From: a virus
Length of the DNA: 64,000 bases
IMG/VR virus record: IMGVR_UViG_3300045988_119718
Span: 160,001-224,000 of that record
Strand: one strand, 5' to 3'
Both the position numbers and the translations under genes were made by a program. Positions 2,615 through 35,443 of this stretch are shown piece by piece. Every line of letters starts with the position of its first letter. Positions within the stretch are counted from its first letter, which is position 1. Below the pieces are notes generated by a model, which was not told the DNA's origin, made no database searches, and saw only the letters and a list, made by a program, of their open reading frames with translations.

Positions 2615-2685
2615 ATATATCTCACTATACCTAATATGGTATAGTGAGATATATTTTACATATTTTATTTTTTCTCTTTTTCTAA
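2615..2685 (+). terminator. Strong plus-strand intrinsic terminator with no plus-strand gene upstream (possible sRNA 3' end)
   Basis: 17-bp perfect stem ATATATCTCACTATACC / GGTATAGTGAGATATAT with loop TAATAT, followed by TTTACATATTTTATTTTTTCTCTTTTTC. There is no U-tract on the minus-strand side. Confidence 0.5.
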
Positions 2686-3489
2686 ATATTCTTTTACTTT
2701 ATCATAGTAATAGTCTTTATTTAAAAATGCTTTCTTAAATTCTTCTAAAGACCCAAATAGTTCTTGTAAATCTCTTCTGTTATCATATAAGTATTTTATC
2801 AAGTTCATATGTCTATCATAAAGTTTAGGATAATGCTGTTTTATTTTTTCTAAGTTTTCAGCAGTATTATATTGAATTGGACATATTAAGCAAGATCTAG
2901 TGAATCCTAAAGTATCATAATCTTTATTAAGCTTTATATTATTTTCCTTAATATACTCATAGCAGTCTTCATCTGTCCAATTAAATATAGGAGAAATTAT
3001 TTTTTTATTTCCTTCTTTTATGGTAATTGCAGATTTAACCCAAGTCTTAGTATTGTATAAATCGTCTTTTCTAACACCAGTGAAAAATATATCATATTTT
3101 TTTAATACTTTTGTTGTTGTTTGCCGTTTATATGAGCAGCAAGATAATAAAAATTTACTATTTATAATATTATTATCTTTGTATAATTTTTTGATATAAG
3201 AAGATAAAGCAAAACATTTATTTTCTTTCATATACTTTTCAGCATCTATACCAATAATAGTTACATCAGGTCTAGATTTAAGATAATCTAATATACCATC
3301 ATCTTCAAACCCAGTAGCAATATAATATTGATAAATAAAATCTCTTACTTTTAATTCTTTTAATAAATTATCGACGATTACACTATCTTTACCACAAGAA
3401 AATAGAAAACATGCATTATCGTCTTTAGAGTAATTATCTAAAATTATTTGTTTAGATTCTTTTATTTTTTCTTCTAGTTGATTAGTCAT
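2665..3489 (-). CDS. PAPS-reductase-like PP-loop ATP pyrophosphatase family protein
   Basis: FLFSCGKDS matches the SGGKDS PP-loop of the PAPS reductase/DndC-like family. There is a C-terminal CxxC. Confidence 0.55.
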   Translation of the reverse strand: MTNQLEEKIKESKQIILDNYSKDDNACFLFSCGKDSVIVDNLLKELKVRDFIYQYYIATGFEDDGILDYLKSRPDVTIIGIDAEKYMKENKCFALSSYIKKLYKDNNIINSKFLLSCCSYKRQTTTKVLKKYDIFFTGVRKDDLYNTKTWVKSAITIKEGNKKIISPIFNWTDEDCYEYIKENNIKLNKDYDTLGFTRSCLICPIQYNTAENLEKIKQHYPKLYDRHMNLIKYLYDNRRDLQELFGSLEEFKKAFLNKDYYYDKVKEYLEKEKK

Positions 3490-14036: not shown

Positions 14037-14750
14037 ATGACAAACGATACTATTAAACCATTGATAATAGATTCTAAATATCCAAAATTATTTACCTATA
14101 ATAATTTTAATCCTACTTTGTATTCTCCTAATTCTCCATATCAAATTATGTTTGCTCAAACTAAAGATTCTCTTATGGATGTAGATGTTTATAGAAATTT
14201 CTTATATTCTGCTATAACTAGATTTAGGCAATCTAATTTCTATAGACATTATAAAGCTCATTTAATGCAAATGGGTATGGATAGATGTCAATTACATCCA
14301 TACTTAATTTCTGATGAAGATGATTCTACTGCTACATTAGAAATGCATCATCATGTACTTACTATATTTGATATAGCATTAGTAATTACTGAGCATATTT
14401 TAAATACCTATGGATATATAACTTCTTTTGACTTAGCATATTTACTTAGGCAAGTTCATGAGCAACATAAAGTTTGCATTGTAATGCTTTGTAAAACTTG
14501 CCATCAGTTATATACAAACCATAATGATGAGTTTAAGATTCCATCTACCTTAGGCTTTGGTAAATGGTGGGAATTCTTGGATGAATATAAATATGGTATT
14601 ACTAGAGACTTAGCAGTTAAGATTTATTATATGCTTAAGAATGATTTACAAAATGCTGATGAACGAGATGAAAAAATAAAAAATATGCTGACTATTAGGG
14701 ATAAGATATTGGATTGGTCTGAATACAATGAAAAACTTACTAGAAAATAA
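14037..14750 (+). CDS. Hypothetical protein of the HHH-motif family (paralog of 25523..26245)
   Basis: RBS AAAGGTGG. LEMHHHVLTIFDIALVI and HQLYTNHNDEFKIP...GKWWEFLDEY align to IHIHHHPLTLFDIVSTI and HELVHNQYLFIPN...GNWKAFIEAY in the other copy. Confidence 0.6.
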   Translation: MTNDTIKPLIIDSKYPKLFTYNNFNPTLYSPNSPYQIMFAQTKDSLMDVDVYRNFLYSAITRFRQSNFYRHYKAHLMQMGMDRCQLHPYLISDEDDSTATLEMHHHVLTIFDIALVITEHILNTYGYITSFDLAYLLRQVHEQHKVCIVMLCKTCHQLYTNHNDEFKIPSTLGFGKWWEFLDEYKYGITRDLAVKIYYMLKNDLQNADERDEKIKNMLTIRDKILDWSEYNEKLTRK

Positions 14751-15493: not shown

Positions 15494-16279
15494 CTATTTA
15501 TCATTATCCAAAGTAATCATTGTGGATAAATTAGAATCACCAGTAATTACTCTAGGCATTACTCCATTCCATTTATCAAGGAATTTTTCCATCAATACGT
15601 ATTTAGACAAACCTTCGTTTTTATACTTATTGGCTTCAGAATCCAATTGAGCTTTCTGCTTATTATATTCAGCTGTAATAGCAGCCTGTTCAGCAATCTT
15701 CTTCTGCTCAATAGCTTTGTCGTATTCATCAGAGAAATTGTGGTCTGTAATCAAGAAAGATTTTATGATAATACCATTATCAGAGAGACGAGTCTTAATA
15801 GAACTAGCAATCTTGTTACTAATTTCATCTCTCTTACTAATGAAATCTTCAATAGGATACTGAGCAATAGTAGCATTGATTACTTCAGCAACAGTAGGTT
15901 TAATAATAATAGATTCTATATTATTTCCATACTGTCTATAGATATCACCAACTTTATTAGTATCCAAAGAATATACTAATGACGATGCGATTTTAATAGT
16001 CTGGATATCACTACTAGATACTTCTACTTCAGAATTGTAACTAATATCTCTAACCTGAAGTTTTACTACTTTATCAATGAATGGAAACTTAAGATTAAAA
16101 CCTTCATTCAGATTATATTTATATTCACCTAAACGAAGTACTACACCTCTTTCACCTGTTTCAATAATTGTAAAAGAGTTGAATATTATAATACCACCAA
16201 CCAAAATACCAGCTACAAGTTTTCCTATCTTAAGTACCATAGATCCTTCATCTTCACCGGTTTCATAATTAAAGCCCAT
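15494..16279 (-). CDS. SPFH/band-7 (prohibitin/stomatin-like) domain protein
   Basis: N-terminal TM segment, then ETGERGVVLRLGEY...FPFIDKVVKLQVRD and a C-terminal coiled region (KAIEQKKIAEQAAITAEYNKQKAQLDSEA), all typical of HflK/C-type SPFH proteins. Confidence 0.65.
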   Translation of the reverse strand: MGFNYETGEDEGSMVLKIGKLVAGILVGGIIIFNSFTIIETGERGVVLRLGEYKYNLNEGFNLKFPFIDKVVKLQVRDISYNSEVEVSSSDIQTIKIASSLVYSLDTNKVGDIYRQYGNNIESIIIKPTVAEVINATIAQYPIEDFISKRDEISNKIASSIKTRLSDNGIIIKSFLITDHNFSDEYDKAIEQKKIAEQAAITAEYNKQKAQLDSEANKYKNEGLSKYVLMEKFLDKWNGVMPRVITGDSNLSTMITLDNDK

Positions 16280-21191: not shown

Positions 21192-23943
21192 ACAACTCCC
21201 CTCTCTTCTTTCTCATAATCTTATTGATGTAATTCTGTGCTCTTACTTCTGGTGGATCAGATGGATTGATACTAATTGGTTCTGGATTATAGCTAGGATT
21301 ATCAGGATTATGATAAATATCATAAGCAAACTGATTTAATCCGCCATATTTTTCAAACTCTTTTTGTCTAGCATTTATTTCATGCATACAAGCCAATCCA
21401 CGTTCATTGGTATAAAAGCTATTGCGGTTTCTATATCTAACTCCTGCATTATAGTTATTAAAGAGGCAATTAGTTACATAATCAGCATCTGCAATAGTTT
21501 TTACATTCAGAATTCTACCATGAGTAAGTTTGATTAAGAAGTCGCTATGTTGTTTGATACGTTCTTTTACTACCTCTTCATAAGGAATAAGCTTTTTGTC
21601 AAGTTCTTCCCAATGATCATTTGCTAACTGCATCATTCTATCGACATATTTCTTTCTGTATTCTTTTTCAGATAATTTAGATGTTGGTTTAGTCCACCAT
21701 TTAAAGAATCTCCTTTCAAATGTTGCTGGATCTTTATCAGTCTTTCTCATAAACATTTTGAAGATATCGTAATTAGCTTTGTTCTGACCTTGAGCAATAT
21801 TAAGAGCTTTAATCATTTTCTTAAATGCTCCATATGCTACATCATCTTTTTCATCGATTACCCGAACATCTCTAAGATTCTGTAGATATTTAACTTTTTC
21901 TTCTACTGTATCATACTTATCGAGTTCAGATAAATCATATGAAACTTTCTTTCTAAGCTCTTCAATCTCTTCTAATGTTGTAGGCTTAGGCTGACCATAA
22001 ACTACTTTATCTCCAATAAAGAGTACGCAAGATTTATTATATGCAAATTCATCAGCATTTCTATAATGCATCAACTGATTCTGACAAAGATCAGTTAAAT
22101 TCTTACGTGCATTACGTGGTAAAATTGTAATAAACCACAAATAGTTATCTGCTACAAACTGATTATATCTAGACAATTCTGTAGCAAGATTAACTCCTTC
22201 ATCTTCTTCAGCTTGTTCTTGAGCAGATTTAAATACATCTGCAAACTGAGAGAAACTGCTAATATGTGGATCTTGGAAATCTTTTGGAGTGGATGACATA
22301 CCAATAGCAGCAAATTTATAGTCATCAGAAAACTGATGACTTGTATTAGCTTGCTTCTGATAATACTCATGTACTTCTTCTTTAGTAAGCTGATGTTTAT
22401 GAGTAGCATCATACATACTAATTTCTTTAGAACCATCTTCATTAGTTTTAGTTCTAATAAGATATACGATAGGTTCAGTATTTTTAGGTTCTTCTTTTTT
22501 CTTTGGCTTACGCTCTACCCCATTACTACAAATCAATTTACCATTTCTATACAGTTTAATGCCTACTTCTTCTCCATCATCAATTTCTTCTTGAGTTGGA
22601 GTTAAGTATAACCAGTTATCATTAAACCATTTAGTTGGTAATCCTTCTTTATCATGACTAAATACGTTCATGTAACCAGAACCTGGTCTATAATGCTGAT
22701 TAGCAAATAACTGCTGATTCTGCATGCAGTAGTTATAATAATTATTCCACTGCTGTGGGGTAGAATAGCTAGCAAGACCATTAGAGTTTGGTGTAAATGC
22801 TGGTGCTACTGGGGTTGTTTCAACAGGCTGGTTGTTGTCTTCTTTATCAAATTCATGGAATACATCTTCACCATTAGCCCATCTCTGGAATTCCTCATTA
22901 TTAGCACTCAATCCTCTTTCTTCACACTTAAATACATATTCAGTATACCCTAACATATCACGATCTTCTGGAGACCAATCTGGTCTTTTCTTAATCTTCT
23001 TAGGTGTATTTCTTGCTTCCTTGGCACTAAGAATAGCAGCTTTCTGCTGATTAAAGCCATCCATAATCTGCTGATAAGGATTACCAGTTTCATTATAAGT
23101 CATGGGTACTGGTGGCATATATGATGCATACTGTAAATACTGAGGATTAATACTTGGTGTAATAATACTATTATATCTACATTTATCATCATATGGATTT
23201 CTTGCTCTAATCTTGCAATCTTGATCTGGAGTAAGTTGGAATTTACGATTTTCTTTTTCTTTCTTCATCCTCATCTGATCTAAGAATTTATTATTCTCAG
23301 TTTCACTATTAAATGAATTATCTCTTTCATCATCTTCATCATGAGGAACACCATCTCTATCCAAAACGCCACCAGCTTTAGCTACTGTGTTTTTATCTTT
23401 CCAATACTGTTTAGCAATCTGATTTGGGTCGTTTACATATTGATTGGTGTGTCTCTGAAAATCAGCAATACGTTCATCATGTTTTCTTTCATTATTGAAC
23501 TGATATTCAGGAGTATACGGTCTTTGATTAAGATATGCTTGTCCTCTAGCTGCATTAACCTGATCCATATAGAGTTCATACGGCGTCTTAGGTCTTTGCT
23601 GAATATGAACATACATATCTTTTGTAGGGTCAAATGATCCTAGTGTATATTTCTTACCAAATTGAGGACTATAAATTGGTACAATGTTTGGGTCATTAGG
23701 ATGAACCTCTAAAGTACCATTAGTCGGAATTGCAGCAGGTATGTCTTGTTTAAATAACTTAGACATATCTGCTTCAGATTCATGAAATTCTTCTTCTTGT
23801 TTTTTACGAATTTTTGTAAGTGCATCTAAGAAATTAAAACTACTAGTTGTTTGTTCTTCTGTGTTAGATTGTTCGCTACAATGTAAATTACTCAATTCTC
23901 TGAAATCGTATGGATTTTTAAATACATAAGGCTCCATAGTCAT
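21160..23943 (-). CDS. Large hypothetical protein (927 aa) with a Q/N/Y/P-rich low-complexity N-terminal half
   Basis: Long ORF. Its start overlaps the RNase H stop (ATGA), and GGAGGTGA lies upstream. Confidence 0.5.
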   Translation of the reverse strand: MTMEPYVFKNPYDFRELSNLHCSEQSNTEEQTTSSFNFLDALTKIRKKQEEEFHESEADMSKLFKQDIPAAIPTNGTLEVHPNDPNIVPIYSPQFGKKYTLGSFDPTKDMYVHIQQRPKTPYELYMDQVNAARGQAYLNQRPYTPEYQFNNERKHDERIADFQRHTNQYVNDPNQIAKQYWKDKNTVAKAGGVLDRDGVPHDEDDERDNSFNSETENNKFLDQMRMKKEKENRKFQLTPDQDCKIRARNPYDDKCRYNSIITPSINPQYLQYASYMPPVPMTYNETGNPYQQIMDGFNQQKAAILSAKEARNTPKKIKKRPDWSPEDRDMLGYTEYVFKCEERGLSANNEEFQRWANGEDVFHEFDKEDNNQPVETTPVAPAFTPNSNGLASYSTPQQWNNYYNYCMQNQQLFANQHYRPGSGYMNVFSHDKEGLPTKWFNDNWLYLTPTQEEIDDGEEVGIKLYRNGKLICSNGVERKPKKKEEPKNTEPIVYLIRTKTNEDGSKEISMYDATHKHQLTKEEVHEYYQKQANTSHQFSDDYKFAAIGMSSTPKDFQDPHISSFSQFADVFKSAQEQAEEDEGVNLATELSRYNQFVADNYLWFITILPRNARKNLTDLCQNQLMHYRNADEFAYNKSCVLFIGDKVVYGQPKPTTLEEIEELRKKVSYDLSELDKYDTVEEKVKYLQNLRDVRVIDEKDDVAYGAFKKMIKALNIAQGQNKANYDIFKMFMRKTDKDPATFERRFFKWWTKPTSKLSEKEYRKKYVDRMMQLANDHWEELDKKLIPYEEVVKERIKQHSDFLIKLTHGRILNVKTIADADYVTNCLFNNYNAGVRYRNRNSFYTNERGLACMHEINARQKEFEKYGGLNQFAYDIYHNPDNPSYNPEPISINPSDPPEVRAQNYINKIMRKKRGELFDYENKYLRY

Positions 23944-24680
23944 TCACCTCCATTAATATATTCGCTAAATGTTTTCAAATCTTCTTTTGTAAGTTTTGTA
24001 TTATTAAGCTTCGGCTTAATATAATTACTATTATGATATATACTTGAAGACATGTTTTCCTTCATATTATATCTAGTAAAATTATCTACAAAAATATTAT
24101 AATAGCAAAGCTCAGCAGCTTCTGTATCTGTTATAAATATTCTGTTATTATTGAAAAACATTTCGATAATTTTGTTTAATTCTACTCTATCGCTCAAATT
24201 AGATTTTTTATTAAGCTTAATCTGAGCATGACCTTTAATGTGATATAGATTAACAGGTATCTTATACTTATTAACTATCTCTATAATTTTTCTAATAATA
24301 TCTTGATTGATTACTTCCTTATCATCATAAGTCTTTCTAATAATATTATCGAGAATATACCAGTTTTTAAAATTATTTCTTAGATTCTCAATACTACTAA
24401 GAGAATCGCTGAAAATATTTATAGGTGTATTGGAAGGCAATCTTCCACTAATAATTTCTCTGTATACGGCTTTAATACCCATTAGAATGGCGTATAATTC
24501 ACCGTATGAAGAATTAGTTTTATTGATAAATTTATTACCATACAATCTAATTATATTATTATAAACTATTACATATCCTGGACTGGATGTAATTTGATCG
24601 GTGCTAGTATAAGCATTTGTAGTACTAGCATCGGTATAGACATTAATAGAATTAAATAAATCCAACTGTTTCATTTTCAT
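23940..24680 (-). CDS. rnh: Ribonuclease H (RNase HI-like)
   Basis: VYTDAS (compare IFTDGS), GELYAILMGIKA (compare NRMELMAAIVAL), IFSDSLSSI (compare LSTDSQYV) and HIKGHAQ (compare VKGHAGH) appear in the canonical order. Confidence 0.65.
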   Translation of the reverse strand: MKMKQLDLFNSINVYTDASTTNAYTSTDQITSSPGYVIVYNNIIRLYGNKFINKTNSSYGELYAILMGIKAVYREIISGRLPSNTPINIFSDSLSSIENLRNNFKNWYILDNIIRKTYDDKEVINQDIIRKIIEIVNKYKIPVNLYHIKGHAQIKLNKKSNLSDRVELNKIIEMFFNNNRIFITDTEAAELCYYNIFVDNFTRYNMKENMSSSIYHNSNYIKPKLNNTKLTKEDLKTFSEYINGGE

Positions 24681-25522: not shown

Positions 25523-26245
25523 TTAGGCATCGGTTTTAGCTTTGATTTCATTTAAAGTCGTATTAATCTTTTCATACAATTTTTCTGTACTTGGTTGATA
25601 ATCGCTGTCATCAACCTGAACATGAACGAATCCATGATCCAATATCTTGGTATTGTCTTCATAGTCATATTCTTGGCTCATTTTTTCAGATTTTTCTATG
25701 TTACTGATGGTTTCTAATGGTATATAATCTTTATAGGCTTCTATAAAGGCTTTCCAATTACCAAATACTACATCATTAGGAATAAATAAATATTGATTGT
25801 GAACTAATTCATGTACTGTTTCTGATAATGGTATTAATCCTACTTTAAGGGTATAATGGTTATACATAACTTCTCTAGCTATTACATTTTCTTCAGTAGA
25901 TAAACCTTCTGCAATATTCTTATTTATAATAGTAGATACAATATCAAACAAAGTTAATGGATGATGATGGATATGTATTTTAACTCCTCTTTCTATCTCA
26001 TTAGAAATATTAGTCATTATACTACATTTGTTAAATCCAGCATAATCTCTTAGAAAAGAAATAAATGATTTATATTCATAGGAATTTCTACAAACTCTTT
26101 CGATTCTAATTACGTATTTCTTAAAATCTTTAGGATTAGATAAATCATAATCAGCGATATCAAAATTAGGAACATTTGATACTTCTATATCATGGTTAAG
26201 GTCTTCATCAATATTTGATTTAATTAATTCAGGATTACGAGCCAA
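25523..26245 (-). CDS. Hypothetical protein of the HHH-motif family (paralog of 14037..14750)
   Basis: See 14037..14750; alignable over about 120 aa. Confidence 0.55.
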   Translation of the reverse strand: MARNPELIKSNIDEDLNHDIEVSNVPNFDIADYDLSNPKDFKKYVIRIERVCRNSYEYKSFISFLRDYAGFNKCSIMTNISNEIERGVKIHIHHHPLTLFDIVSTIINKNIAEGLSTEENVIAREVMYNHYTLKVGLIPLSETVHELVHNQYLFIPNDVVFGNWKAFIEAYKDYIPLETISNIEKSEKMSQEYDYEDNTKILDHGFVHVQVDDSDYQPSTEKLYEKINTTLNEIKAKTDA

Positions 26246-26577: not shown

Positions 26578-27939
26578 TTAATTCTTAATCTGCTCTTTAT
26601 ATAATTCCACGAAAAGTTCATAAGAGTTCTTTAATACATCAATGTTATTGTAGAAATCTTTCTGGGATCTTTCAATAACATCTTCTAATTGCTTTGCTAA
26701 GCCTTGTACTTCCTGCTGTGCAAACTGACTATCTCTTACTTTAATAAAGTGAAGCATATTTTCCATTGTAAAAGTATACATAGCATTGGTAGTTACATTC
26801 ATAGGTAAGAATGCTCTAGCATCTTGGTTAATCATACCTTGCTGTTTAAGCTGAGGATAGAGTTTAATAATTTCTTCACCTAATTCTTCAGATGTCATAT
26901 TAAACTCTTTACCACCAAATTTGAATGCATACTTCTTATTGATATCAGGATATGCTTTAGGGTTAAATGGAAGAGGATCAACAAATAATGCTTTCTTAGA
27001 ATAATCTACATATCTCTGAGATTCTTGAGAAATAGCGCATAAGTGTCTATTTACCTGTTGAGAAATAGCTCTAGAGAAATTCTTCATTTTAAAGCTAACA
27101 GTAGTACATCTAAAGATAGCTTTCATAAAGAGTTTAGCCTGTTCTTTATTTAGTTTATACATTCCTTCAGGGTCAATAAGTTCAACATGATCTTCATAGT
27201 GATCAGCAATACGTACTAAGATATCATTATATATAGCAATGATATCAGGGTAATTATACATAAAAATATTTTTATTAGAATATAGACGACTTTCATCAGT
27301 AAATGAGTTATCAAGATAATATGGATATTTATACTTAAATTCATCCAAGTCTACATAATCCTTCATATCTTCAAAGAACTCTTTTTCAATACTGTGTTTA
27401 GCAATATCCAAAATAACTCTATACAGGTCAAAGTTAAAGTTAGTTTCATTCTCAGATACAATACTGTCTGGGAGAGTACTATTTTGAATAAAATATCTAA
27501 ATGCTCTGATAGACCCTGACATTAATACGAAATACTCTTTAGCATCTTTATTATGAATAAAGTCTAAAGGTACGATATTCATGAAGTGTAATGCTGATAA
27601 ACTGGTATAGATAGAAGATAAATCAAAATCAGAGAGAACTGTATTATTCGATTTAAAACACAGCAAAACCATAATATTGGAATGACCACAAATAGAATCA
27701 TGACCATATCCCATAACTCTTTTAATATGAGCTAAGCATTTATCATATGTATTTTCTGGTGCTAACCCATAGCATGTTCTAGCAGCCATACTACAAAGAA
27801 ATGCTGATTCAGTATTATCAATAATATCGTAGGTAATAACGATATTGCGATTAGATTCATTCTGTAATTGTTTATTCATCTTTGAAGAATCTTTATTAAA
27901 GAATTCTTTAAGTTTGTTACGATTAAAAATCATAGTCAC
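26578..27939 (-). CDS. thyX: Divergent ThyX-like (flavin-dependent thymidylate synthase family) protein, unusually long
   Basis: N-terminal AARTCYGL...GHDSICGHSNI (ThyX GHxSxxEH region) and C-terminal NRHLCAISQESQRY, which matches the ThyX RHRxxxxSQxSQRY signature except that the second Arg is missing. At 453 aa it is roughly twice the typical ThyX length. Confidence 0.55.
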   Translation of the reverse strand: MTMIFNRNKLKEFFNKDSSKMNKQLQNESNRNIVITYDIIDNTESAFLCSMAARTCYGLAPENTYDKCLAHIKRVMGYGHDSICGHSNIMVLLCFKSNNTVLSDFDLSSIYTSLSALHFMNIVPLDFIHNKDAKEYFVLMSGSIRAFRYFIQNSTLPDSIVSENETNFNFDLYRVILDIAKHSIEKEFFEDMKDYVDLDEFKYKYPYYLDNSFTDESRLYSNKNIFMYNYPDIIAIYNDILVRIADHYEDHVELIDPEGMYKLNKEQAKLFMKAIFRCTTVSFKMKNFSRAISQQVNRHLCAISQESQRYVDYSKKALFVDPLPFNPKAYPDINKKYAFKFGGKEFNMTSEELGEEIIKLYPQLKQQGMINQDARAFLPMNVTTNAMYTFTMENMLHFIKVRDSQFAQQEVQGLAKQLEDVIERSQKDFYNNIDVLKNSYELFVELYKEQIKN

Positions 27940-28423
27940 TTACCCTCCCAAATTGACTTTGATAAATATTATTGGTGCTATCTGGAGTATTAGTAGTTAC
28001 TTGTCTACTAATACCTCTATTATTATATTCTACTACAGGAATCAATAGTCTCTGTGCATATTGACACAGAGTAGTAGTTCCGTTAGAATGCTGGTTATCT
28101 CTAAAAACGAAAATCTTATCAGGTTTATAATTCAGTAATTGTAAAAACCATTGAGCTTCTTTAGATTGAGTCATAATATACTTTTTAGAACAATCGCATG
28201 GAATATCTAGTTTTATAAGATTTTCTTTAGGAATCTTTAATGATTCAGCATACTGTTCTACATGGTCTACTAATCTTGGTAAACCACCATATACAAATTT
28301 TGCTTTCTTATTATAATAAAGAATTGTATAAATATTTCCCATAGGTATCCCAATATCATAAACTAAATATGTTTGGTCAAATACAATTCCTATTACTACT
28401 TGTGAATTATCTTCTTCTTGCAT
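27923..28423 (-). CDS. Hypothetical protein in the nucleotide-metabolism module
   Basis: 166-aa ORF between the ThyX-like and Tmk-like genes, possibly a Rossmann-like fold (KIFVF...LLIPVVEY). No identification made. Confidence 0.4.
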   Translation of the reverse strand: MQEEDNSQVVIGIVFDQTYLVYDIGIPMGNIYTILYYNKKAKFVYGGLPRLVDHVEQYAESLKIPKENLIKLDIPCDCSKKYIMTQSKEAQWFLQLLNYKPDKIFVFRDNQHSNGTTTLCQYAQRLLIPVVEYNNRGISRQVTTNTPDSTNNIYQSQFGRVSDYDF

Positions 28424-28431
28424 AATATCAC

Positions 28432-29253
28432 CTATTTTCTCTTTGCTCTAGCAGAAAGAATAAGTTTAAATCTTCTCAGAGAAGGTTTAAGAGCAGTAAC
28501 AATTTCTTCTTTAATAGCTTCTCTATCTTTACCTTCTACATTGATATTAGTAATATTAGAATACTTACTGTTTACATACGGTGTAAAATCAGTATTATTA
28601 AAAGTATTTCTTACAAAGCCAAGATAGCAATCATCACTTTCATAACCATCTTTCTTGTTTCCTCTAATATTAAGTTTCTTATTAATATCATCAATATTAT
28701 TATTATGAAGATTAATCAGGATATCAGTTACAGGAAGCTTATAATAAACATGAGCCATATTAAATACAGTTTTCTGACATTTCTTAATAAACTCTTCTAG
28801 TTCTTTAAGATGTACTTTATCAATAGTACCCTGAATATCTTTAGTAAGATAATAGAGCATAGAATACCAATATCTATCAAAGATAATGATAGTAGGTTTA
28901 GAGAATACTTTATTCACTCTCATACTTTCATACCAATCATACATATCAAGCAAAAACAGATTAGATACAAACTTAAGATAATCCATAGATTCTGGATTAA
29001 TATCTACTTTTGGATGATCTACAAACTTATTAGCTAAATGACGTTTAACAAAATAAGATGCTTCAGATTTATATCTAGGAAAAGATACAATCTTAATCTG
29101 TAAATCAACTGAATCAATATATTTCTTAAAATCTTCTTTAAGATAACTAGCAATAGCTTTAGCATTAGTTTCCTTATAAGTAGCATCTAATCCTTCTAAT
29201 GTAATAAAAAGATTATACTTACTATAATCTGGAAGAATAGGTTGTCTTTTCAT
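28432..29253 (-). CDS. tmk: Thymidylate kinase-like (dNMP kinase family) protein with degenerate P-loop
   Basis: FITLEGLDATYKET occupies the position of the Tmk IxxEGxDGxGKxT P-loop but the glycines are replaced. DRYWYS matches the Tmk DRY motif. The start is set at MKRQP, which is preceded by AAAGGAGAG. Confidence 0.5.
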   Translation of the reverse strand: MKRQPILPDYSKYNLFITLEGLDATYKETNAKAIASYLKEDFKKYIDSVDLQIKIVSFPRYKSEASYFVKRHLANKFVDHPKVDINPESMDYLKFVSNLFLLDMYDWYESMRVNKVFSKPTIIIFDRYWYSMLYYLTKDIQGTIDKVHLKELEEFIKKCQKTVFNMAHVYYKLPVTDILINLHNNNIDDINKKLNIRGNKKDGYESDDCYLGFVRNTFNNTDFTPYVNSKYSNITNINVEGKDREAIKEEIVTALKPSLRRFKLILSARAKRK

Positions 29254-29491
29254 AATAAACTCTCCTTTGCATAAAAACACTTATGAAAAAAGCCTTTTAT
29301 TCTAAAGTGATTATAATTTTATATATCTATTTTCTATAAATAACGCATAGAAGATTTTCTATATGTCCGGAAAATTAACAAAGGTTTTTAAACTGGAATA
29401 GTTCAAAAGTGTAATAGACTTCTACAACTTTATAAACTATTCTTTACTGAAGAAGTGTAAAACTTTTATTTTTATTGAAAGGAGAAAACTT

Positions 29492-29596
29492 TATGAACTC
29501 TATTATTGAAAAAAGTATATATGCTATTTTACTATTTCTCTGGAGTATTATTATCTACGATATTATTTCTGGTAATATTATTGAAGAACTTTTATA
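29492..29596 (+). CDS. Possible 34-aa hydrophobic peptide
   Basis: GAAAGGAGAAAACTTT-ATG. MNSIIEKSIYAILLFLWSIIIYDIISGNIIEELL is one TM-like helix. Confidence 0.25.
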
Positions 29597-29699
29597 AACT
29601 TTCTTAACTTCTATAACTTTATTGGAGTTTTTAACTATTAGGTTGATTCTAGGAAAGGATTTGTGCGACTGAAAGGAGCAACAAAACTTTCCGCCATTA

Positions 29700-29765
29700 A
29701 AAATGGGTTCTAACCCCCGTGAGGGGGTGGTGATTGTAGATTCCTACCCCCTGGAGGTAGACTAG
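29700..29765 (+). other. GC-rich structured element (two adjacent hairpins) in an AT-rich background
   Basis: CCCCC-gtga-GGGGG and CTACC-ccctgga-GGTAG. No tRNA cloverleaf could be built. Confidence 0.3.
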
Positions 29766-29811
29766 CTTTTAAACTTTTACCAAGTTTTATACTTTATAAA
29801 CTTTTTTAATT

Positions 29812-29837
29812 ACCATCTTCGGTATATACCGAAGATG
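29812..29837. terminator. 26-nt perfect palindrome CCATCTTCGGTATATACCGAAGATGG, candidate terminator for the 29470-29840 plus-strand unit
   Basis: Perfect self-complement with TATA centre, followed by TTATATTCTTT. Confidence 0.4.
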
Positions 29838-30233
29838 GGTTATATTCTTTAAAAACTGTATTTTTAGAAAGAATTCTTAATATATCAATACACTTATATT
29901 GAATTAAGGTTTAGAACTCTTATATTAAAAAATGCAGTGTTATATTTCTATTATATTGGATAGGTTTAGAACAGTATTATTTTGAAAAATACTTATAAAC
30001 TTGTTTTTATTGGTATTTTATTTACACTTCTTAATTGAAGAGGTTTTATAACTCTTTTCAATTAAAAATAAAATTATAAACTCGTAGTTTATAAAGTTTA
30101 GAAAAAGTTTATAATTATAGTATTTTTTCAATAAATTCTTTTTTGTTATTATTTAATAATTCATGTACATTTTCGTAATGAAATTTTTTTGACTACTTTT
30201 ATAGTTTGTATTCTTTTTTCTTTCCCTCTTTTT

Positions 30234-30280
30234 GGAGGGAAAGGGGGATGGGGGTTCTAGGGGGTAGGGGGGGGAAGGGA
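30234..30280. repeat. G-rich tract (GGAGGGAAAGGGGGATGGGGGTTCTAGGGGGTAGGGGGGGGAAGGG), G-quadruplex candidate
   Basis: G runs of 5, 5, 5 and 8 within 45 nt, flanked by mirror-image pyrimidine runs (TTTCCCTCTTTTT / CCTTTTTCTCCCTTTC). Confidence 0.8.
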
Positions 30281-30689
30281 ACCTTTTTCTCCCTTTCTTT
30301 TTTCAACTTCATAAAAATGTATAGATTCTTTTCTATCTTTATAAGTTGTATTTCAATGTATTCTAATAGAAATATGGCTATTCAGTAGTAAAAAATAAAA
30401 CGATTTTTCTTATAACTTCAGTGTAAAAACAAGGGTATGAGATTGATTCTCATACCCATATCTTACCTCGTATATTGCTTTCATACAAAAAATGCTATAT
30501 CTCAAAATATAGTATCGTATTCCTATTAAAAATAATAGTCATAGGAGCATGGTTTAAAAATACAACATTACATACTTCCTATAGAAAAATGATTTTTTCA
30601 TGGATTTTTACCTAAATATCAATAATTTCTGTCTAAATGCGAATCATTCGCATTTGTTAGAAAAAGTTTATAATTATAAACTGAAAAAA

Positions 30690-30940
30690 TCGCTAATTTT
30701 TTAGTTAAAAATTAAAAATCAACTAACATACCCTTTTTTCGCTATTTTCGTATTCCTATTAGTTTTAATGGAAATATGACTTTCTCATACCTTGCTAAAA
30801 ATTTAGTTAAAATTGAAAAACCAATTAACATACACTTTTTTAGCCATATTCGTATTCCCATTGGTTCTAATGGAAATACGACTTTTCAATTTTTTCTAAA
30901 AATTTAGTTAAAATTGAAATACCAATTAACATGTGGTCAC
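30690..30940. repeat. Tandem direct repeats of ~105 bp (2.4 copies)
   Basis: AAAAATTTAGTTAAAATTGAAA(A/T)ACCAATTAACAT... occurs at ~30796 and ~30899, with a degenerate copy at ~30700. Each unit contains TTCGTATTCC(T/C)ATT(A/G)GTT..AATGGAAATA. Confidence 0.75.
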
Positions 30941-31022
30941 TACGAAATTATAAACAAAAGTTTATAATTAGTTTATAATTTATTTTTAAAGAAAATAAAA
31001 AACATGATAAAAGACAGCAGAA

Positions 31023-31049
31023 ACCCAGTACAGGATAAACCTGTACTGA
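31023..31049 (-). terminator. Hairpin downstream of the 1448-aa gene
   Basis: CAGTACAGG-ataaa-CCTGTACTG, followed on the minus strand by GGTTTCTGCTGTCTTTTATC. Confidence 0.4.
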
Positions 31050-31096
31050 GTATTCACGCTATCTTCAGTTGGTATACTATAATGTAGGTAAAAATA

Positions 31097-34000
31097 TTAA
31101 TCATGAAGATTATCTACATTAGTAAGGTTATTCCACTTTATACCAAGTTTTTCCTTACACTGTCTAGATAATTCCATAAGTACTTTGTTCAATGAACCAC
31201 TACTAATGATAGAAGCTGTCATACGAGCATTAACCGATGCTGAAGTTAATAAAGCATCTATTGGTTCATCAGGTCTAAAATCAGTATATGGTTCTTTACC
31301 TTTAGGCATAATATCTTTTACTACACCTTTGATTGCAGTGTTGTAAGTCAGCTTATCACCAACGCCCATCTTATCTTCACACTTGATGTAGAAGCAGAAC
31401 ATTACACCTTTTTCCAAGTTCTTGAATTTGCCTTCTGGTAATAACTTTTCTGTAGAAGGTACTGATTCATTAATTTCTATATCTGTTACTCCGTTATCTT
31501 TAAGATATTTCTTTTCTTTCTTTATAGAATTTTCATACTTAGAAACTATCTTCTTTAATGATGGAGATAATTCATCTAATTCACAAGTTCTAAATATTTT
31601 AATATCTTGAAGAGTACCAGTAATCTTAGAATGAACTTGAATTCTACCAAAGTCTGTAGCTAATTCTAATTCATCATCAGAAATATTCTTCATTAAAGTA
31701 TTAGCTTCATCATCAGTAAATGCATTCTGGAAGATTATTAATGGAGAACCTTCTTCTATAGGTTTACCTTTTTCAGCTAAGAAGAATACATTAGAACCAG
31801 CATCTAAAGAACATGTTTTTTCTACACAATAGAATGAAGTAAGAGCATCTGAAATACGTTCATCTATAATAGAAGAATCTTCATATGCTTCATCTGTACA
31901 CATTATAGCTATTTTAGCCATAGTACCAATGTTAAATGCAACGTTTTTATTATCAGCGTTATGCCCTATAGAGGGACTGAACGAAGTTGGGTCATATGCT
32001 AAGATATCATTATACTTTAAGGTTTGACCTTTCTTTACAAAAGGTTTAAGTTTAACTGTTACATAGAAACCACCATCAGAGTTCTTCTGTGTTTTCTCTC
32101 TTAAATCTACAGAATGCTTGGATTTATTACCGTCTTTATCTACTTCTTCAAAGATAATAAAGTCATCAGTAATATTTAAAACTTTTCCTTTTACTCCTTT
32201 AAATTTATAAGAAAAAATATTAGAAGTAAAGTAAGGTAATGCCTCATCCATGCCATAAGTAATAAAATTCGGAGATGAAGATTTAACTCTCATAATATGC
32301 TTAGTAGTCTGAATATAGCCCATTGCAGTACGAATTGGGTCATCATGTGTAGTAGCATAAGGAGCCATAGCTTCATAAACAGACATACCATTCAATGTAT
32401 TCAATTTAGATTTATCATTACTTACTTTAAGTATACCTCTGCCATCAGCTATGGAAGAATTAATAGTAGCCTGTCTAGTAATACCTACATTACCAGCAAA
32501 CCCAGTAGACATAGATAAGATACCTAACATGGAATCGTCATATACACGTTTATCTAATGTATAAGCTCTATCAGCATTCATACCAGATAAGCCTTTGAAT
32601 GAGTATGTATTAATAGCTTCAGCTTCTAATAATGGAGAAGATACCGAAAGATCAGATATACCAGGGTCTTTCATAACTGCATCTATAAGAGCAGACTGTT
32701 TAATGGTAAACTTAACTCCTCTACCAGTTCTCTTCGATTTATTAGCATATTGACCATATGCATTAGCAATAGCTTGATATAAATAACCAGCTAATATTTC
32801 ATTAGAACGTAATCTATTACCAGAGATATCTGCATGCTTATTATAAGAAGTAGAAGCTAATAAGCTACTAGCATAAGCTAATGCTTCTATATAATCGTAT
32901 GGAATATCGTACTTCTTGCAAATATCAATAGTCATAGGATCAAATTCGCAATCATAGAAGTTATCAAAACCATCAGCTTTAATTCTACCACCAAATTCAT
33001 CTAAGATATCTAACCACATATTTTTTGTGTTGATATCTTTAATAGAGAATCTAGATAAATCAGTTTTAGCTAATCCTGCCATTAATAATGAATCTTCTGG
33101 CTTCTCATCATTATAAACTAAATATCCATCACTAAATCTAATTACAGATTCTGTTTCAGTTACCTTAGGTCTAGTATCAGAGAATCTGTATTTAATCTTA
33201 GCTTTATCCATAGACTTCTGTAAACCTTCAGAAAAAGCCATAAGAATAATAACTGGAATTTTAGTATTCATGATAGATGCTTGAGAGTAAGAAAGTTTAT
33301 TAGATGGTTTAGCTAAAGCATAAGTTTCTGCAAATACTTTATCTTTAGAAGCTAAGAATTTACCAATAGTATAAGCTGCATTTTCTTTATTAGAATAGAT
33401 AGCTTTTTTAGTTTTACTATCATACCCAATTAAGATATCAGTTTTTTCATTAAATTTTTTATCTACAGGAAGTTTCTTTAATGCATCATAGTCAAAAGCT
33501 ATATAACTTCCATCAGCTGTAGTAATTTTAGAGTATAAAGCACCTAAGTCTTTAAATTCTATCGGCATATCATACTTGGAAAGAATAAAAGTATTATCAC
33601 CGATATAAACTTTAACTTTAGAATCTGTGTCTTTTAAGTTCTTTAAAGCTTTAGTAAGTTTAGATACACCTTTAGTAGACTTAGTACCACCAGAAGGATT
33701 AACTCTTGAAATAAATATTTTATGATAAGAGGTAACTATCTGAGTTGTATCCTCTTCTGTTTTAATTATAGGAAGTAAAAGAATCTGTCCAGCTATAGTT
33801 TTAGTATTTCCTCTTAATTTCATAAATCTATGATTTATAAATTTAGGAATATCTATAGCTATATTTGATCTAGTACCATTAATATCTTCTAATTGTACTC
33901 TTAAAGTATAAATATAATCTTCATTAGTAGATTCATCTGTCATTTCCATACTAGCAACACATAATGGCCTAGACTTATTTCTAAGAGATTTAAATATAGC

Positions 34001-35443
34001 AATAATATCTTCATCTATATCATAGGATTTATTAAAGTCTAAAGCTGTTACATCTTTCCATTCTTCATTAATAGAATCAATGGGAATAGTTTCAGGCTTT
34101 AATTCTCTTTTCTTAGTATAGTAATTCTTTAATACATCTCCTACTTTTTTACCATGGATTACAGTTTTATCAAAATCTTTATCTAACTGCTCCATTCTCT
34201 TTTTTCTAGCTTCAGTTATTTTAGTAATAGGAGGATTATCTAAATCTAATATTACATCCTTGATATAATCTTCATCATTATCTACTGTAATTTCTTTTAA
34301 TTCTTTTTCTTGAGATTCTTCTTCTTGTTCTTCCTCGGATTTTTCTTTAGGAGTCTCATCATCGTTGAATCCATCGTCATCTAAATCATCTGGATTAAAA
34401 GAAGCTTTAGCTGAAATAGAATCAGAATTATTTTTCTTTTTAGATTTAGTAGCACCAAATCTATTATCCATAACTATTGAATCAGAAGAATCTGGATTAA
34501 TCTCAGCATCATCTGCATTAGATAAGTCATTCTTTATTAATTTTTTAGTAAAGAATACAAATCTAATTAAATCTTTAATATCGAAATTAGAGAAGTCTAC
34601 TTTGAAGTATGCATTTTTAGAAGCGATAATAAAGTCTATACCACTCCAATAATTAGATATAATCTGTCTTTGTCTAACTAATCTATAAATCATAGAAAAT
34701 GGGTTTATAGAATTATTAAAATCAAATATATCGCAGCCTTTAGGAATCCATGATTCTACAGGAATGATACAGGTCTTTCTAGAATAATATTGATTAATTC
34801 TAGAATCATCTAAGTATCTAGTGATAATATGATGAAGTAAGTCTAATCCTCTATCTCTTTGATAAACTTTATTATTTTTCAAGAATATATTTATATAATG
34901 GGATAAATCTACGATAAGATTCTTTCTATTATATTGCTTTAGATTAACAAAAGTATTTCTAATAAATGGAACTTTAGCTTTAACTTTACTATAGATTTCA
35001 AATATTTCTTTTTGGTTTTTTATTCTTTCATTATAAAGAAGATTTCTAAATATACTTGGATAGTTTTGATTCATTCTAAAATCTTCATTTAATATTTCAT
35101 CTACTTTATCAGGAAAGAATACTCTACTATCATCTAAGTCATAATATAAATCATTATTATCACCATCAAATTTAGACTCTAACATAGTCTTCATAAACGG
35201 TTCATTTATAGTAGAAGCTTCATTAGTGAAAAATGTGAAATCCTTTTCTGTATAATATGAAATAAAAGTATTTCTATTAACAAGAAACTTATTATTATTT
35301 AAAAAGCTAATAGTATCATCAATATCCTTGGTTAATATAAACAAAGCACTATTATGATAAATATCATTTTGCGTATATGCTGGGTAAAATAGTTTTGTTT
35401 TCATTAACCTTAAAGGAATGAGTTTTTCTATCGTATATGGCAT
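31097..35443 (-). CDS. Multisubunit-RNA-polymerase beta-subunit homolog (C-terminal conserved regions) with a long unique N-terminal extension
   Basis: SPLLE...[31 protein letters not shown] aligns to RpoB NPLSE..[43 protein letters not shown]...[16 protein letters not shown] aligns to [52 protein letters not shown]...ARM aligns to [25 protein letters not shown]...SRMN. The three blocks occur in the same order as in RpoB. Confidence 0.6.
   Translation of the reverse strand: [1448 protein letters not shown]

What the first reader, a model, noticed from the sequence alone, without database searches (positions are those of the whole stretch)
26578..29253. Atypical nucleotide-metabolism module: long ThyX-like protein lacking the second Arg of RHR, plus a Tmk-like protein with glycine-less P-loop
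The ThyX-like protein carries an N-terminal GH.S..(E/G)H block and a C-terminal ..RH-LCAISQESQRY. The latter matches the ThyX RHRxxxxSQxSQRY signature but with one residue missing, so the second, phosphate-binding Arg is absent. The protein is also about twice normal length.

The adjacent kinase is recognisable as thymidylate-kinase family by EG.D...K.T and DRYxxS. Its P-loop, however, reads GLDATYKET instead of GxDGxGK(S/T)T.

Together these suggest a pathway acting on a non-standard pyrimidine nucleotide, i.e. a modified-base DNA. Alternatively one or both enzymes may be inactive regulatory paralogs. The PAPS-reductase-like PP-loop gene at 2665..3489 would fit a DNA- or nucleotide-modification theme.
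Basis: partly seen in the sequence, partly recalled or inferred. Interest (0 to 1): 0.6.

Follow-up and report, generated by a model that had tools for sequence, protein, structure and literature searches.

The report
Two-domain ThyX plus odd thymidylate kinase
A giant uncultured phage carries a three-gene operon for making thymidine nucleotides, in which the thymidylate synthase is a fused double version of the normal enzyme with its catalytic residues split between the two halves, and the kinase has a nucleotide-binding loop that breaks the usual rule; both look functional, and nothing shows that the phage DNA carries a modified base.

Summary
The 451/453-aa protein is a genuine Thy1/ThyX homologue reading RHL-X6-SQRY where the ThyX motif is RHR-X7-S. 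Family alignment shows the second Arg is substituted, not deleted: same-length relatives read RHR. According to a review, that Arg binds FAD phosphates, not dUMP.

The double length is best explained by two ThyX-like domains in tandem.
- The N-domain keeps only GHxS and the GSxR arginine, the residues a neighbouring subunit gives to FAD.
- The C-domain keeps RH, SQRY and the two dUMP arginines, and lacks what the N-domain keeps.
- I infer that a dimer is a pseudo-tetramer with two active sites instead of four.

The kinase belongs to the thymidylate-kinase fold. Its Walker A reads G-x4-Y-K-E-T, and Y or F precedes the Lys in every relative examined. It also has Met at the conserved thymine-binding Arg.

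The two genes and a small unknown gene form one operon, syntenic across relatives of 25-40% identity. The host is a jumbo phage whose RNA polymerase is nearest to uracil-DNA phages.

The most likely function is dTMP/dTDP supply. A modified-pyrimidine pathway is not excluded (about 0.2). Inactive paralogues are unlikely. The PAPS-reductase gene is unrelated to the module.

The parts
28432..29253 (-). Tmk-like gene (273 aa from ATG 29253; ORF listed from GTG 29280 as 282 aa). First gene of the operon.
   Evidence: ORF. SD AAAGGAGA 8 nt upstream of ATG 29253. Homologues start MKRQP. The family profile hits solved thymidylate kinases at E=4e-15. The AF2 model (pLDDT 82) matches TMPK structures with TMt up to 0.80. 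As a single sequence, Pfam PF02223 scores only 16 bits, below the 27-bit cut-off.
29167..29196 (-). Deviant Walker A / P-loop EGLDATYKET. Tyr stands where the second Walker-A Gly should be, and Glu where the Mg-binding Ser/Thr should be.
   Evidence: Translation. Column-for-column alignment to EGLDRSGKST of P. falciparum and Candida TMPK. [YF]-K at this position in all 23 family members aligned and in 7 further loci.
28942..28944 (-). Met113 (282-aa numbering) at the TMPK 'F-x3-R' position that holds the thymine-binding Arg.
   Evidence: The profile alignment puts 'flldM' opposite 'FSANR' of PfTMPK. M or Q in the window clade, R in P0135/6, P0146/8/9, L008 and L011. The role of that Arg (H-bond to thymine O4) is from my own knowledge of TMPK structures and was not checked here.
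27923..28423 (-). Small conserved ORF (166 aa) of unknown function between the two enzymes.
   Evidence: ORF. 33% identical to the syntenic 153-aa gene of L001. Its family has only 25 representative clusters among 1.84 billion proteins. No Pfam, PHROG or PDB sequence match. Present in 6 of 10 related loci.
26578..27933 (-). Long ThyX-like gene (451 aa from ATG 27933; ORF listed from GTG 27939 as 453 aa). Last gene of the operon; it overlaps the small ORF by 11 nt.
   Evidence: Pfam Thy1 E=2e-28, two stretches. PHROG thymidylate synthase families. PDB ThyX sequence hits. AF2 model pLDDT 86, pTM 0.85. Foldseek hits to ThyX structures.
27268..27852 (-). N-domain (aa 30-224). A degenerate ThyX-like domain that keeps GHDSICGH (H80, S82) and SGSIRAFRYF (R145). 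It has no RHR, SxRY or dUMP-binding arginines.
   Evidence: A profile of this half alone hits M. tuberculosis and C. glutamicum ThyX in two collinear stretches, Mtb 35-93 and 177-247. The sub-profile of aa 128-192 beats 2000 of 2000 shuffles of the Mtb and Cg fragments and 1997 of 2000 for PBCV-1, but does not stand out against H. pylori or T. thermophilus. H80, S82 and R145 are invariant in 63 sequences.
26581..27267 (-). C-domain (aa 225-453). A ThyX domain that keeps R298-H299, S307-Q-R309-Y310, R375 and R402. It lacks the GHxS block and has Glu393 where H. pylori ThyX has Arg165.
   Evidence: HMMER alignments to 3ah5, 2cfa and 6j61. The Foldseek alignments are 219-250 columns long against ThyX chains of 179-220 residues, so I infer one contiguous stretch of the query covers a whole ThyX chain. 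Invariant columns.
27010..27048 (-). ThyX motif variant RHLCAISQESQRY (RHL-X6-SQRY instead of RHR-X7-S).
   Evidence: Translation. Family table of this segment. Canonical spacing is visible in the H. pylori and PBCV-1 alignments. Motif definition RHRX7S as quoted in PMC2826268.
26338..26374 (-). Terminator-like hairpin (15-bp stem, 8 G-C pairs) about 200 nt downstream of the ThyX-like stop codon; probable operon end.
   Evidence: Terminator scan.

Best explanation
This is a phage operon that supplies thymidine nucleotides for replicating a thymine-containing genome. The gene order is tmk-like, small unknown gene, tandem thyX.

**ThyX-like protein**
- It is an active flavin-dependent dUMP C5-methylase made of two ThyX-derived domains in one chain.
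- In ordinary ThyX, four identical subunits build four active sites. Each site uses RHR from one subunit, a Ser and an Arg from a second, and a dUMP site from a third.
- Here the N-domain keeps only the 'second-subunit' residues (H80, S82, R145).
- The C-domain keeps only the other two sets (R298-H299, S307/R309/Y310, R375, R402).
- A dimer of this protein would therefore be a pseudo-tetramer with two complete sites and two dead ones. This step is inferred, not shown.
- The second Arg of RHR is a contact to the FAD phosphates. In this clade it has been lost and the position now drifts freely. I expect this to change flavin binding rather than substrate choice.

**Tmk-like protein**
- It is an active nucleoside-monophosphate kinase of the thymidylate-kinase lineage.
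- It would carry the product on to the diphosphate, and may also act on other dNMPs.
- It does so with a remodelled phosphate-donor loop (G-x4-[Y/F]-K-E-T) and a relaxed base pocket (Arg to Met).

**Small middle gene**
- It is an accessory of unknown role.
For: **Shown**
- Thy1 membership and a confident ThyX-like model.
- The positions aligned to H. pylori R74, H75, R165 and R174 are visible; those aligned to M. tuberculosis S71-region and R190 are visible.
- In 63 sequences down to 24% identity, the columns of H80, S82, R145, H299, S307, R309, R375 and R402 are invariant, and R298 and Y310 are at least 90% conserved.
- The N-half alone matches both ends of ThyX but not its middle. The C-half has Glu at the H. 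pylori R165 position and no GHxS block.
- The review PMC6514825 assigns RHR to subunit A, and Ser71/Arg190 (Mtb) = Ser50/Arg165 (Hp) to subunit B of the same FAD site.
- The Tmk-like family profile hits TMPKs at E=4e-15 and shares their fold. E29, G30, D32, K36, T38, SFP, DR and the lid-region Glu are invariant.
- Gene order is conserved in relatives of 34-46% identity. There is an SD-ATG start, an 8-nt gap, an 11-nt overlap and a downstream terminator.
- A related locus carries a dUTPase next to the module.
- Iyer et al. 2021 state that most jumbo phages carry a TS or ThyX, and that uracil-DNA requires their absence.

**Inferred**
- The equivalences to T. maritima residue numbers (H53, T55, R78, H79, S88, R90, Y91, R147, R165, R174) rest on my own alignment to a TM0449 sequence recalled from memory.
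- The two-site pseudo-tetramer follows from the review's subunit assignment combined with D2 symmetry.
- The identity of the product (dTMP).
- That the kinase is active despite its Walker A.
Against: - No activity data exist for any member of either family.
- The ThyX motif RHRX7S is not met.
- A profile comparison of the N-half against the C-half finds no similarity. The second N-half match to ThyX is weak on a database-wide scale (i-E 1.5) and absent against H. pylori and T. thermophilus fragments.
- I could not inspect model coordinates or model a dimer with ligands.
- A Tyr or Phe in place of the Walker-A Gly, and Glu in place of the Mg-binding Ser/Thr, are positions described as strictly conserved in P-loop NTPases. 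The P-loop is also the least confident part of the model's core. A kinase with ATP as donor is therefore not guaranteed.
- In the window's clade three changes coincide: loss of the second RHR Arg, loss of the kinase's base-binding Arg, and gain of the small ORF. A plain dTMP pathway does not explain this.
Confidence: 0.55

Rival explanations
1. Modified-pyrimidine pathway. The ThyX-like enzyme releases a C5-modified dUMP instead of dTMP, for example 5-hydroxymethyl-dUMP formed by hydration of the exocyclic-methylene intermediate. The kinase, with its opened base pocket, phosphorylates that nucleotide. The small ORF is a further pathway component. The phage DNA then carries a thymidine replacement.
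For: - In the window's clade three changes coincide: the second RHR Arg is lost, the TMPK base-binding Arg is M or Q, and the small ORF is present (6 of 6 loci). Two outgroup loci keep both arginines and lack the small ORF.
- ThyX chemistry passes through an exocyclic methylene that a nucleophile could trap (discussion in PMC8989533).
- ThyX paralogues with altered specificity exist, such as PolB (PMC5954106).
- The phage's RNA polymerase is nearest to phages with non-canonical (uracil) DNA.
Against: - All mapped dUMP-binding and catalytic residues of ThyX are conserved.
- The lost Arg contacts FAD, not the substrate.
- P0068/L009 has RHR but is otherwise window-like, so the changes are not strictly linked.
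- The co-variation is confounded by phylogeny, since it amounts to essentially one clade against another.
- No known hypermodification gene was seen among the window ORFs scanned with Pfam or PHROGs.
- Known 5-hmdU phages use ThyA-family enzymes.
Confidence: 0.2
2. One or both proteins are catalytically dead. They would act as nucleotide-binding, regulatory or scaffolding subunits, or the genes are decaying.
For: - The RHRX7S motif is not met.
- Walker A lacks both its second Gly and its Mg-binding Ser/Thr.
- The single-sequence Pfam score for the kinase is below the cut-off.
Against: - Both families keep the remaining catalytic residues invariant down to about 25-30% identity over dozens of clusters.
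- The genes are intact, translationally coupled and syntenic in many contigs.
- The deviant residues are themselves conserved ([YF]-K, T38), which is not the pattern of decay.
Confidence: 0.08
3. Uracil-DNA phage. Like its nearest RNA-polymerase relatives, this phage replaces T by U. The ThyX-like and Tmk-like proteins are then repurposed, for example as a dUMP kinase with a dTMP- or dUMP-sequestering protein.
For: - The RNAP beta-like protein is 27-30% identical to those of Listeria LPJP1, Staphylococcus S6 and relatives, Bacillus PBS1 and Yersinia phiR1-37. That several of these carry uracil-DNA is partly from the papers listed and partly from my own knowledge.
- One Tmk-like relative (P0141) is fused to a dCMP-deaminase domain.
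Against: - Iyer et al. 2021 list absence of TS/Thy1 and of dUTPase as prerequisites for uracil-DNA. This phage has a Thy1 with an intact dUMP site, and a relative has a dUTPase nearby.
- tblastn finds neither protein in PBS1-like phages.
- The characterised dU-phage enzymes belong to other families: Dcd is a dCMP-deaminase relative, Dtm is a nucleotidase or an HD hydrolase, and a dTTP pyrophosphatase (Dtt) serves in phiR1-37.
Confidence: 0.05

Closest known systems
Canonical flavin-dependent thymidylate synthase ThyX (T. maritima TM0449, M. tuberculosis, H. pylori, PBCV-1; Pfam PF02511)
   Same: Same fold and family. Same His, Ser, Arg and Tyr residues at the flavin and dUMP sites, so presumably the same chemistry.
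   Different: - One chain holds two ThyX-derived domains (about 450 aa against 190-260).
- The site residues are partitioned between the domains.
- RHL-X6-S replaces RHR-X7-S.
- Two active sites per pseudo-tetramer are predicted instead of four.
Other long phage ThyX-like proteins in BFVD (A0A8S5THH6, Myoviridae sp. ctIty1, 502 aa; Brevibacillus phage Jenst, 346 aa; crAss-like phages, 303-334 aa)
   Same: Foldseek aligns them over the whole length of the query, 419-466 columns. They are annotated simply as thymidylate synthase.
   Different: Only 11-22% identical. None is characterised. I did not check whether they share the complementary residue partition.
PolB, a ThyX paralogue of polyoxin biosynthesis
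   Same: It is a ThyX-family enzyme whose role has diverged from housekeeping dTMP synthesis (PMC5954106). It is a precedent for neofunctionalisation.
   Different: PolB is a single-domain paralogue in Streptomyces that methylates UMP and dUMP. No sequence comparison was made here.
Thymidylate kinases, type I (human, yeast, P. falciparum, vaccinia) and type II (E. coli, M. tuberculosis, A. aeolicus); Pfam PF02223
   Same: Same fold (TMt up to 0.80). The EGxD, FPxY/R, stacking Phe, DRY and lid 'YE' elements all align.
   Different: - Walker A is G-x4-[Y/F]-K-E-T instead of G-x4-G-K-[ST]-T.
- There is no P-loop Arg.
- The base-binding Arg is Met in this clade.
- It is about 60 residues longer, with insertions and a basic C-terminal helix.
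Phage dNMP kinases (T4 gp1, T5 dNMP kinase)
   Same: Possible functional analogue: a phage-encoded kinase that rephosphorylates several dNMPs. This comparison is from my own knowledge.
   Different: These belong to different sequence families, and no homology was detected here.

Membership tests
ThyX / Thy1 (PF02511) | Significant match to the family profile | tested here: met
   99.9 bits against a 24.8-bit cut-off, E=2e-28. PDB ThyX sequence hits. Foldseek probability 1.00.
ThyX / Thy1 (PF02511) | ThyX motif RHR-X7-S | tested here: not met
   The sequence reads RHL-X6-S. Motif as quoted in PMC2826268. The first Arg and the His are kept.
ThyX / Thy1 (PF02511) | dUMP-binding and catalytic residues (T. 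maritima S88, R90, Y91, R147, R174 equivalents) | tested here: met
   S307, R309, R375 and R402 are invariant, and Y310 is at least 90% conserved, in 63 sequences. Alignments. The mapping to T. maritima numbers is by my own alignment to a sequence recalled from memory.
ThyX / Thy1 (PF02511) | FAD contacts from the neighbouring subunit (Mtb Ser71 and Arg190) | tested here: met
   Present as S82 and R145, but in the N-domain and not in the domain that carries RH.
ThyX / Thy1 (PF02511) | Homotetramer with four composite active sites | not testable with these tools
The residue partition predicts two sites.
ThyX / Thy1 (PF02511) | dUMP to dTMP activity with flavin, CH2-THF and NAD(P)H | not testable with these tools
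   Needs an enzyme assay.
Thymidylate kinase (PF02223) | Significant match to the family profile or fold | tested here: met
   The single sequence is below the Pfam cut-off (16 against 27 bits). The family profile hits TMPKs at E=4e-15, and the model matches TMPK structures.
Thymidylate kinase (PF02223) | Walker A GxxxxGK[ST] | tested here: not met
   The sequence is G-LDAT-Y-K-E-T. [YF] precedes the Lys in all relatives.
Thymidylate kinase (PF02223) | DR[YFH] motif and FPxY/R motif | tested here: met
   D135-R136-Y137 and S66-F67-P68-R-Y70 are invariant or nearly so.
Thymidylate kinase (PF02223) | Stacking Phe plus base-binding Arg four residues later | tested here: not met
   F109 is present, but M113 stands at the Arg position. 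Arg is retained in a sister subfamily.
Thymidylate kinase (PF02223) | dTMP phosphorylation | not testable with these tools
   Needs an enzyme assay.
Uracil-DNA phage nucleotide toolkit (PBS1 type) | Absence of thymidylate synthase / Thy1 | tested here: not met
   A Thy1 gene with an intact dUMP site is present. Criterion from PMC7824862.
5-hmdU thymidine-hypermodification systems | ThyA-family dUMP hydroxymethylase, 5-hmdU DNA kinase and aGPT-Pplase genes | tested here: not met
   None was found among the window ORFs scanned with Pfam or PHROGs. Only 64 kb of a genome likely larger than 200 kb was seen, and not every ORF was scanned.

The most novel reading that the evidence does not exclude
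This clade of gut jumbo phages has rebuilt thymidylate metabolism around a different nucleotide or cofactor.
- The tandem ThyX has lost the second RHR Arg and, by my reading, the Glu of the GHxSxxEH block. It might then use a differently bound flavin and release a C5-modified dUMP rather than dTMP.
- The kinase, with a Tyr/Phe Walker A and no thymine-reading Arg, would be specific for that product.
- The clade-restricted small protein would be a third pathway enzyme.
- The result would be a flavin-dependent (ThyX-based) route to a thymidine replacement in DNA. I found no description of such a route in the papers searched.
Probability: 0.15. Interest if true: 0.85.

Novelty: new variant of a known kind. 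Interest (0 to 1): 0.5.

Why it matters
- **ThyX as a natural experiment.** ThyX is an antibacterial target whose active site is built from three subunits. A natural single-chain version that assigns each residue set to a different domain shows which contacts belong to which subunit role. It would also give an asymmetric scaffold in which one site can be mutated without touching the other.
- **The kinase and the P-loop rule.** The kinase family challenges the rule that the Gly before the Walker-A Lys and the Ser/Thr after it are indispensable. If it is active, it defines a new way to hold the phosphate donor.
- **Phage biology.** The module marks a large, uncultured lineage of low-GC jumbo phages. 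These are related by RNA polymerase to uracil-DNA phages but carry a thymidylate synthase. That bears on how the uracil-DNA lifestyle arose.
- **If the product is not dTMP.** It would be a new DNA-modification route.

Tried and rejected
- **Close DNA relatives.** Megablast of the region against GenBank phages found none.
- **Homologues in isolated phages.** tblastn of the ThyX-like protein found only C-terminal matches to ordinary phage ThyX, none covering 80% of the query. The Tmk-like protein gave one partial hit in an unannotated faecal contig.
- **Internal duplication by sequence.** hhalign of the N-half against the C-half found nothing. The two-domain reading therefore rests on matches of each half to ThyX, not to each other.
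- **Arg148 as a relocated replacement for the lost RHR Arg.** Dropped. M. tuberculosis ThyX has the same R-x-x-R, and the correlation is confounded by phylogeny.
- **The small ORF as compensation for the lost Arg.** Weakened. L009 has both RHR and the small ORF.
- **Identity of the small ORF.** Pfam, PHROGs, PDB profile searches and a full representative-library search gave no informative match.
- **Foldseek against AFDB50.** Unavailable.
- **Mutational data on the RHR arginines.** Ulmer et al. 2008 is not in the held library. Two ThyX papers contain no mention of the T. maritima residue names I searched.
- **Literature on tandem ThyX or Walker-A-deviant TMPKs.** Searches found nothing.
- **RNA genes.** Rfam and tRNA scans of the window were empty.


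Full report
**What is at the coordinates.** Three minus-strand ORFs fill 26578-29280.
- A Tmk-like gene. The likely start is ATG 29253, 8 nt after AAAGGAGA. This gives 273 aa, as in its homologues.
- A ThyX-like gene. The likely start is ATG 27933, giving 451 aa as in its homologues.

The gaps between them are 8 nt and minus 11 nt (an overlap). A strong terminator-like hairpin lies at 26374-26338. This looks like one operon. Residue numbers below follow the ORFs as listed from their GTG codons (453 and 282 aa).

**Genomic setting.** The window has about 28% G+C. It carries:
- virion structural genes and a head protease;
- a 2767-aa protein whose C-terminal part matches tape-measure and peptidase families;
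- a 1448-aa multisubunit-RNA-polymerase beta-like protein.

The closest relatives of that polymerase, at 27-30% identity, are jumbo phages Listeria LPJP1, Staphylococcus S6/SA1/MarsHill, Bacillus PBS1 and Yersinia phiR1-37. Several of these are known uracil-DNA phages (and my own knowledge). No GenBank phage is close at the DNA level. Homologues of the module come from ENA and Logan metagenome contigs of up to about 250-290 kb. The element is therefore an uncultured jumbo phage.

**The ThyX-like protein: checking the observation.** Pfam Thy1 matches at E=2e-28 in two stretches.

Pairwise alignments disagree on where the one-residue gap falls. HMMER puts it at the second Arg against H. pylori ThyX, but after the Glu against PBCV-1 ThyX. 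The family alignment resolves this:
- All long-form proteins have six residues between RH[R/x] and SQRY.
- P0068 and P0114-P0120 read RHR at that length.
- So the spacer is one residue shorter family-wide, and in the window's clade the second Arg is substituted.
- That position is free to vary (L, M, Q, D, H, F, N, E).

According to the review PMC6514825, the RHR residues H-bond the AMP phosphate, ribityl and FMN phosphate of FAD. Ser71 and Arg190 of a neighbouring subunit (M. tuberculosis numbering; Ser50 and Arg165 in H. pylori) contact the same groups. The lost Arg is thus a cofactor contact, not the dUMP-phosphate contact the finding implied.

**Why the protein is twice as long.**
- The AF2 model is confident: pLDDT 86, pTM 0.85.
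- Against solved ThyX chains of 179-220 residues, Foldseek gives alignments of only 219-250 columns. I take this to mean that one contiguous stretch of the query, the C-half, covers a whole ThyX chain.
- The N-half (aa 30-224) searched alone as a profile hits M. tuberculosis and C. glutamicum ThyX in two collinear stretches. These are Mtb 35-93, which contains GHFSVLEH, and Mtb 177-247, which contains GNYRAWRHF.
- The N-half therefore spans both ends of a ThyX domain but lacks its middle.
- The second stretch is weak database-wide (i-E 1.5). A sub-profile of aa 128-192 nevertheless outscores 2000 of 2000 shuffles of the Mtb and Cg fragments and 1997 of 2000 for PBCV-1. It does not stand out against H. 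pylori or T. thermophilus.
- N-half and C-half profiles show no similarity to each other. Any duplication is old, or the halves have diverged beyond recognition.

**Complementary residue sets.** The following holds across 63 sequences, down to 24% identity.
- N-domain invariants: H80 and S82 (the GHxS block, aligned to the Mtb Ser71 region) and R145 (aligned to Mtb Arg190).
- C-domain invariants or near-invariants: R298-H299, S307, R309, Y310, R375 and R402.
- The C-domain has no GHxS block. It has Glu393 exactly where H. pylori has Arg165, and that column varies freely.
- The N-domain has no RHR, no SxRY and no equivalent of the two dUMP arginines.

I combined the review's subunit assignment (RHR from subunit A, Ser and Arg from B, a third subunit C at the flavin and dUMP) with the D2 symmetry of a tetramer. 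The four sites then use the role triples (A,B,C), (B,A,D), (C,D,A) and (D,C,B). If the two C-domains occupy positions A and C, and the two N-domains occupy B and D, then exactly two sites are complete. Each domain has lost precisely the residues that would serve only the two dead sites.

This is my inference. It fits the data closely but needs a dimer model or a structure. I found no paper describing such a ThyX. BFVD does hold other long phage proteins annotated as thymidylate synthase that align over the whole model.

**Is the ThyX-like protein active, and on what?** Conservation of every mapped substrate and catalytic position argues for an active enzyme acting on dUMP. Loss of the second RHR Arg should affect flavin binding. 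The window's clade also has G or A where the RHR-type relatives keep the Glu of GHxSxxEH. I did not find a source for that Glu's role. Nothing in the sequence tells whether the product is dTMP.

**The Tmk-like protein.**
- As a single sequence it is below the Pfam cut-off.
- A profile of 23 relatives hits solved thymidylate kinases at E=4e-15.
- The model (pLDDT 82) matches TMPK structures with TMt up to 0.80.
- The P-loop aligns column for column with EGLDRSGKST. The Gly before the Lys is Tyr, and is Tyr or Phe in every relative. The Ser after the Lys is Glu; Q, L, N or Y occur in a few relatives. The following Thr is invariant.
- A comparative study of P-loop NTPases describes the Ser/Thr after the Walker-A Lys as strictly conserved and Mg-coordinating.
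- SFPRY, DRY and the lid element 'D-x-Y-E', preceded by basic residues, are conserved.
It is M or Q throughout the window's clade, but Arg in a sister subfamily and in loci L008 and L011. From my knowledge of TMPK structures, this Arg reads thymine O4.
- This could mean a broader dNMP kinase or a different preferred base.
- One relative, P0141, is fused to a dCMP-deaminase domain, which fits pyrimidine deoxynucleotide metabolism.

**Linkage across relatives.** I examined ten loci.
- The [Y/F]-K kinase sits immediately upstream of the tandem ThyX in eight of the ten, including three of the five loci with RHR-type ThyX.
- The small ORF is present in six loci. These are exactly the loci whose kinase lacks the base-binding Arg.
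- L009 has RHR together with the small ORF, so loss of the ThyX Arg is not tied to it.
- The order continues with a phrog_12252 protein and an RNase H in several loci.
- L008 has a dUTPase close by.
- The small ORF's family is tiny, 25 representative clusters in 1.84 billion proteins. It matches nothing known.

**Interpretation.** The most economical reading is a phage dTMP/dTDP-supply operon with two structurally unusual but functional enzymes (confidence 0.55).
- *Uracil-DNA lifestyle.* The presence of a Thy1 argues against it, despite the polymerase kinship.
- *Modified-pyrimidine pathway.* It is not supported by any direct evidence. It is kept alive by the coincident changes in this clade: the kinase's base-binding Arg, the small ORF, and the flavin contacts. 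I give it about 0.2.
- *Dead paralogues.* Unlikely, given the conservation.
- *The PAPS-reductase-like gene at 2665-3489.* It is a common phage family 23 kb away and plays no visible part.

**Verdict.** This is a new variant of known enzyme kinds: a single-chain, half-of-sites ThyX and a Walker-A-deviant TMPK lineage in an uncultured jumbo-phage clade. It is of moderate interest now, and of high interest if biochemistry shows a non-dTMP product.

Noticed in passing
window 29281-31096: A 1.8-kb stretch between the Tmk-like gene and the RNA-polymerase gene with no ORF above 60 aa. It holds three ~101-bp tandem repeats (about 30690-30990) and several G+C-rich hairpins. Six of the window's seven copies of AAGTTTATAA fall here, on both strands (1.7 expected in the whole window). 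It may be a promoter or regulatory hub, or an origin.
   Followed up: partly
window 31097-35443 (-): A 1448-aa multisubunit RNA polymerase beta-like protein. Its nearest relatives (27-30% identity) are jumbo phages LPJP1, S6/SA1/MarsHill, PBS1 and phiR1-37, several of which have uracil-DNA. Yet this phage encodes a ThyX.
   Followed up: partly
window 25523-26245 (-) and 14037-14750 (+): Two paralogues of the uncharacterised phage family phrog_12252. The first is rich in conserved His residues. It follows the ThyX gene in distant relatives too (46% identity to the L001 copy).
   Followed up: partly
window 6665-13945 (-) and 36859-45162 (+): Two giant ORFs of 2426 and 2767 aa. The first matches nothing in PHROGs or Pfam. 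The second matches tape-measure and metallopeptidase/endolysin families only in its last ~850 residues.
   Followed up: no
protein P0141 (relative of the Tmk-like protein, 409 aa): The Tmk-like domain is fused to a cytidine/dCMP deaminase domain (PF00383). This links the deviant-P-loop kinase family to dCMP-to-dUMP conversion.
   Followed up: no
proteins P0103 and P0104 (521-535 aa): Tandem ThyX relatives with an extra insertion of roughly 65-80 residues at the junction between the two domains. This suggests the linker tolerates added modules.
   Followed up: no
L008 8273-9486: In a locus with an RHR-type tandem ThyX, a Fer4_12 protein and a dUTPase lie just downstream. This is consistent with a conventional dUTP-to-dUMP-to-dTMP flow in that relative.
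   Followed up: no
window 15494-16279 (-) and 23940-24680 (-): An SPFH/Band-7 domain protein and an RNase H homologue. The RNase H recurs a few genes from the ThyX module in most related loci.
   Followed up: no
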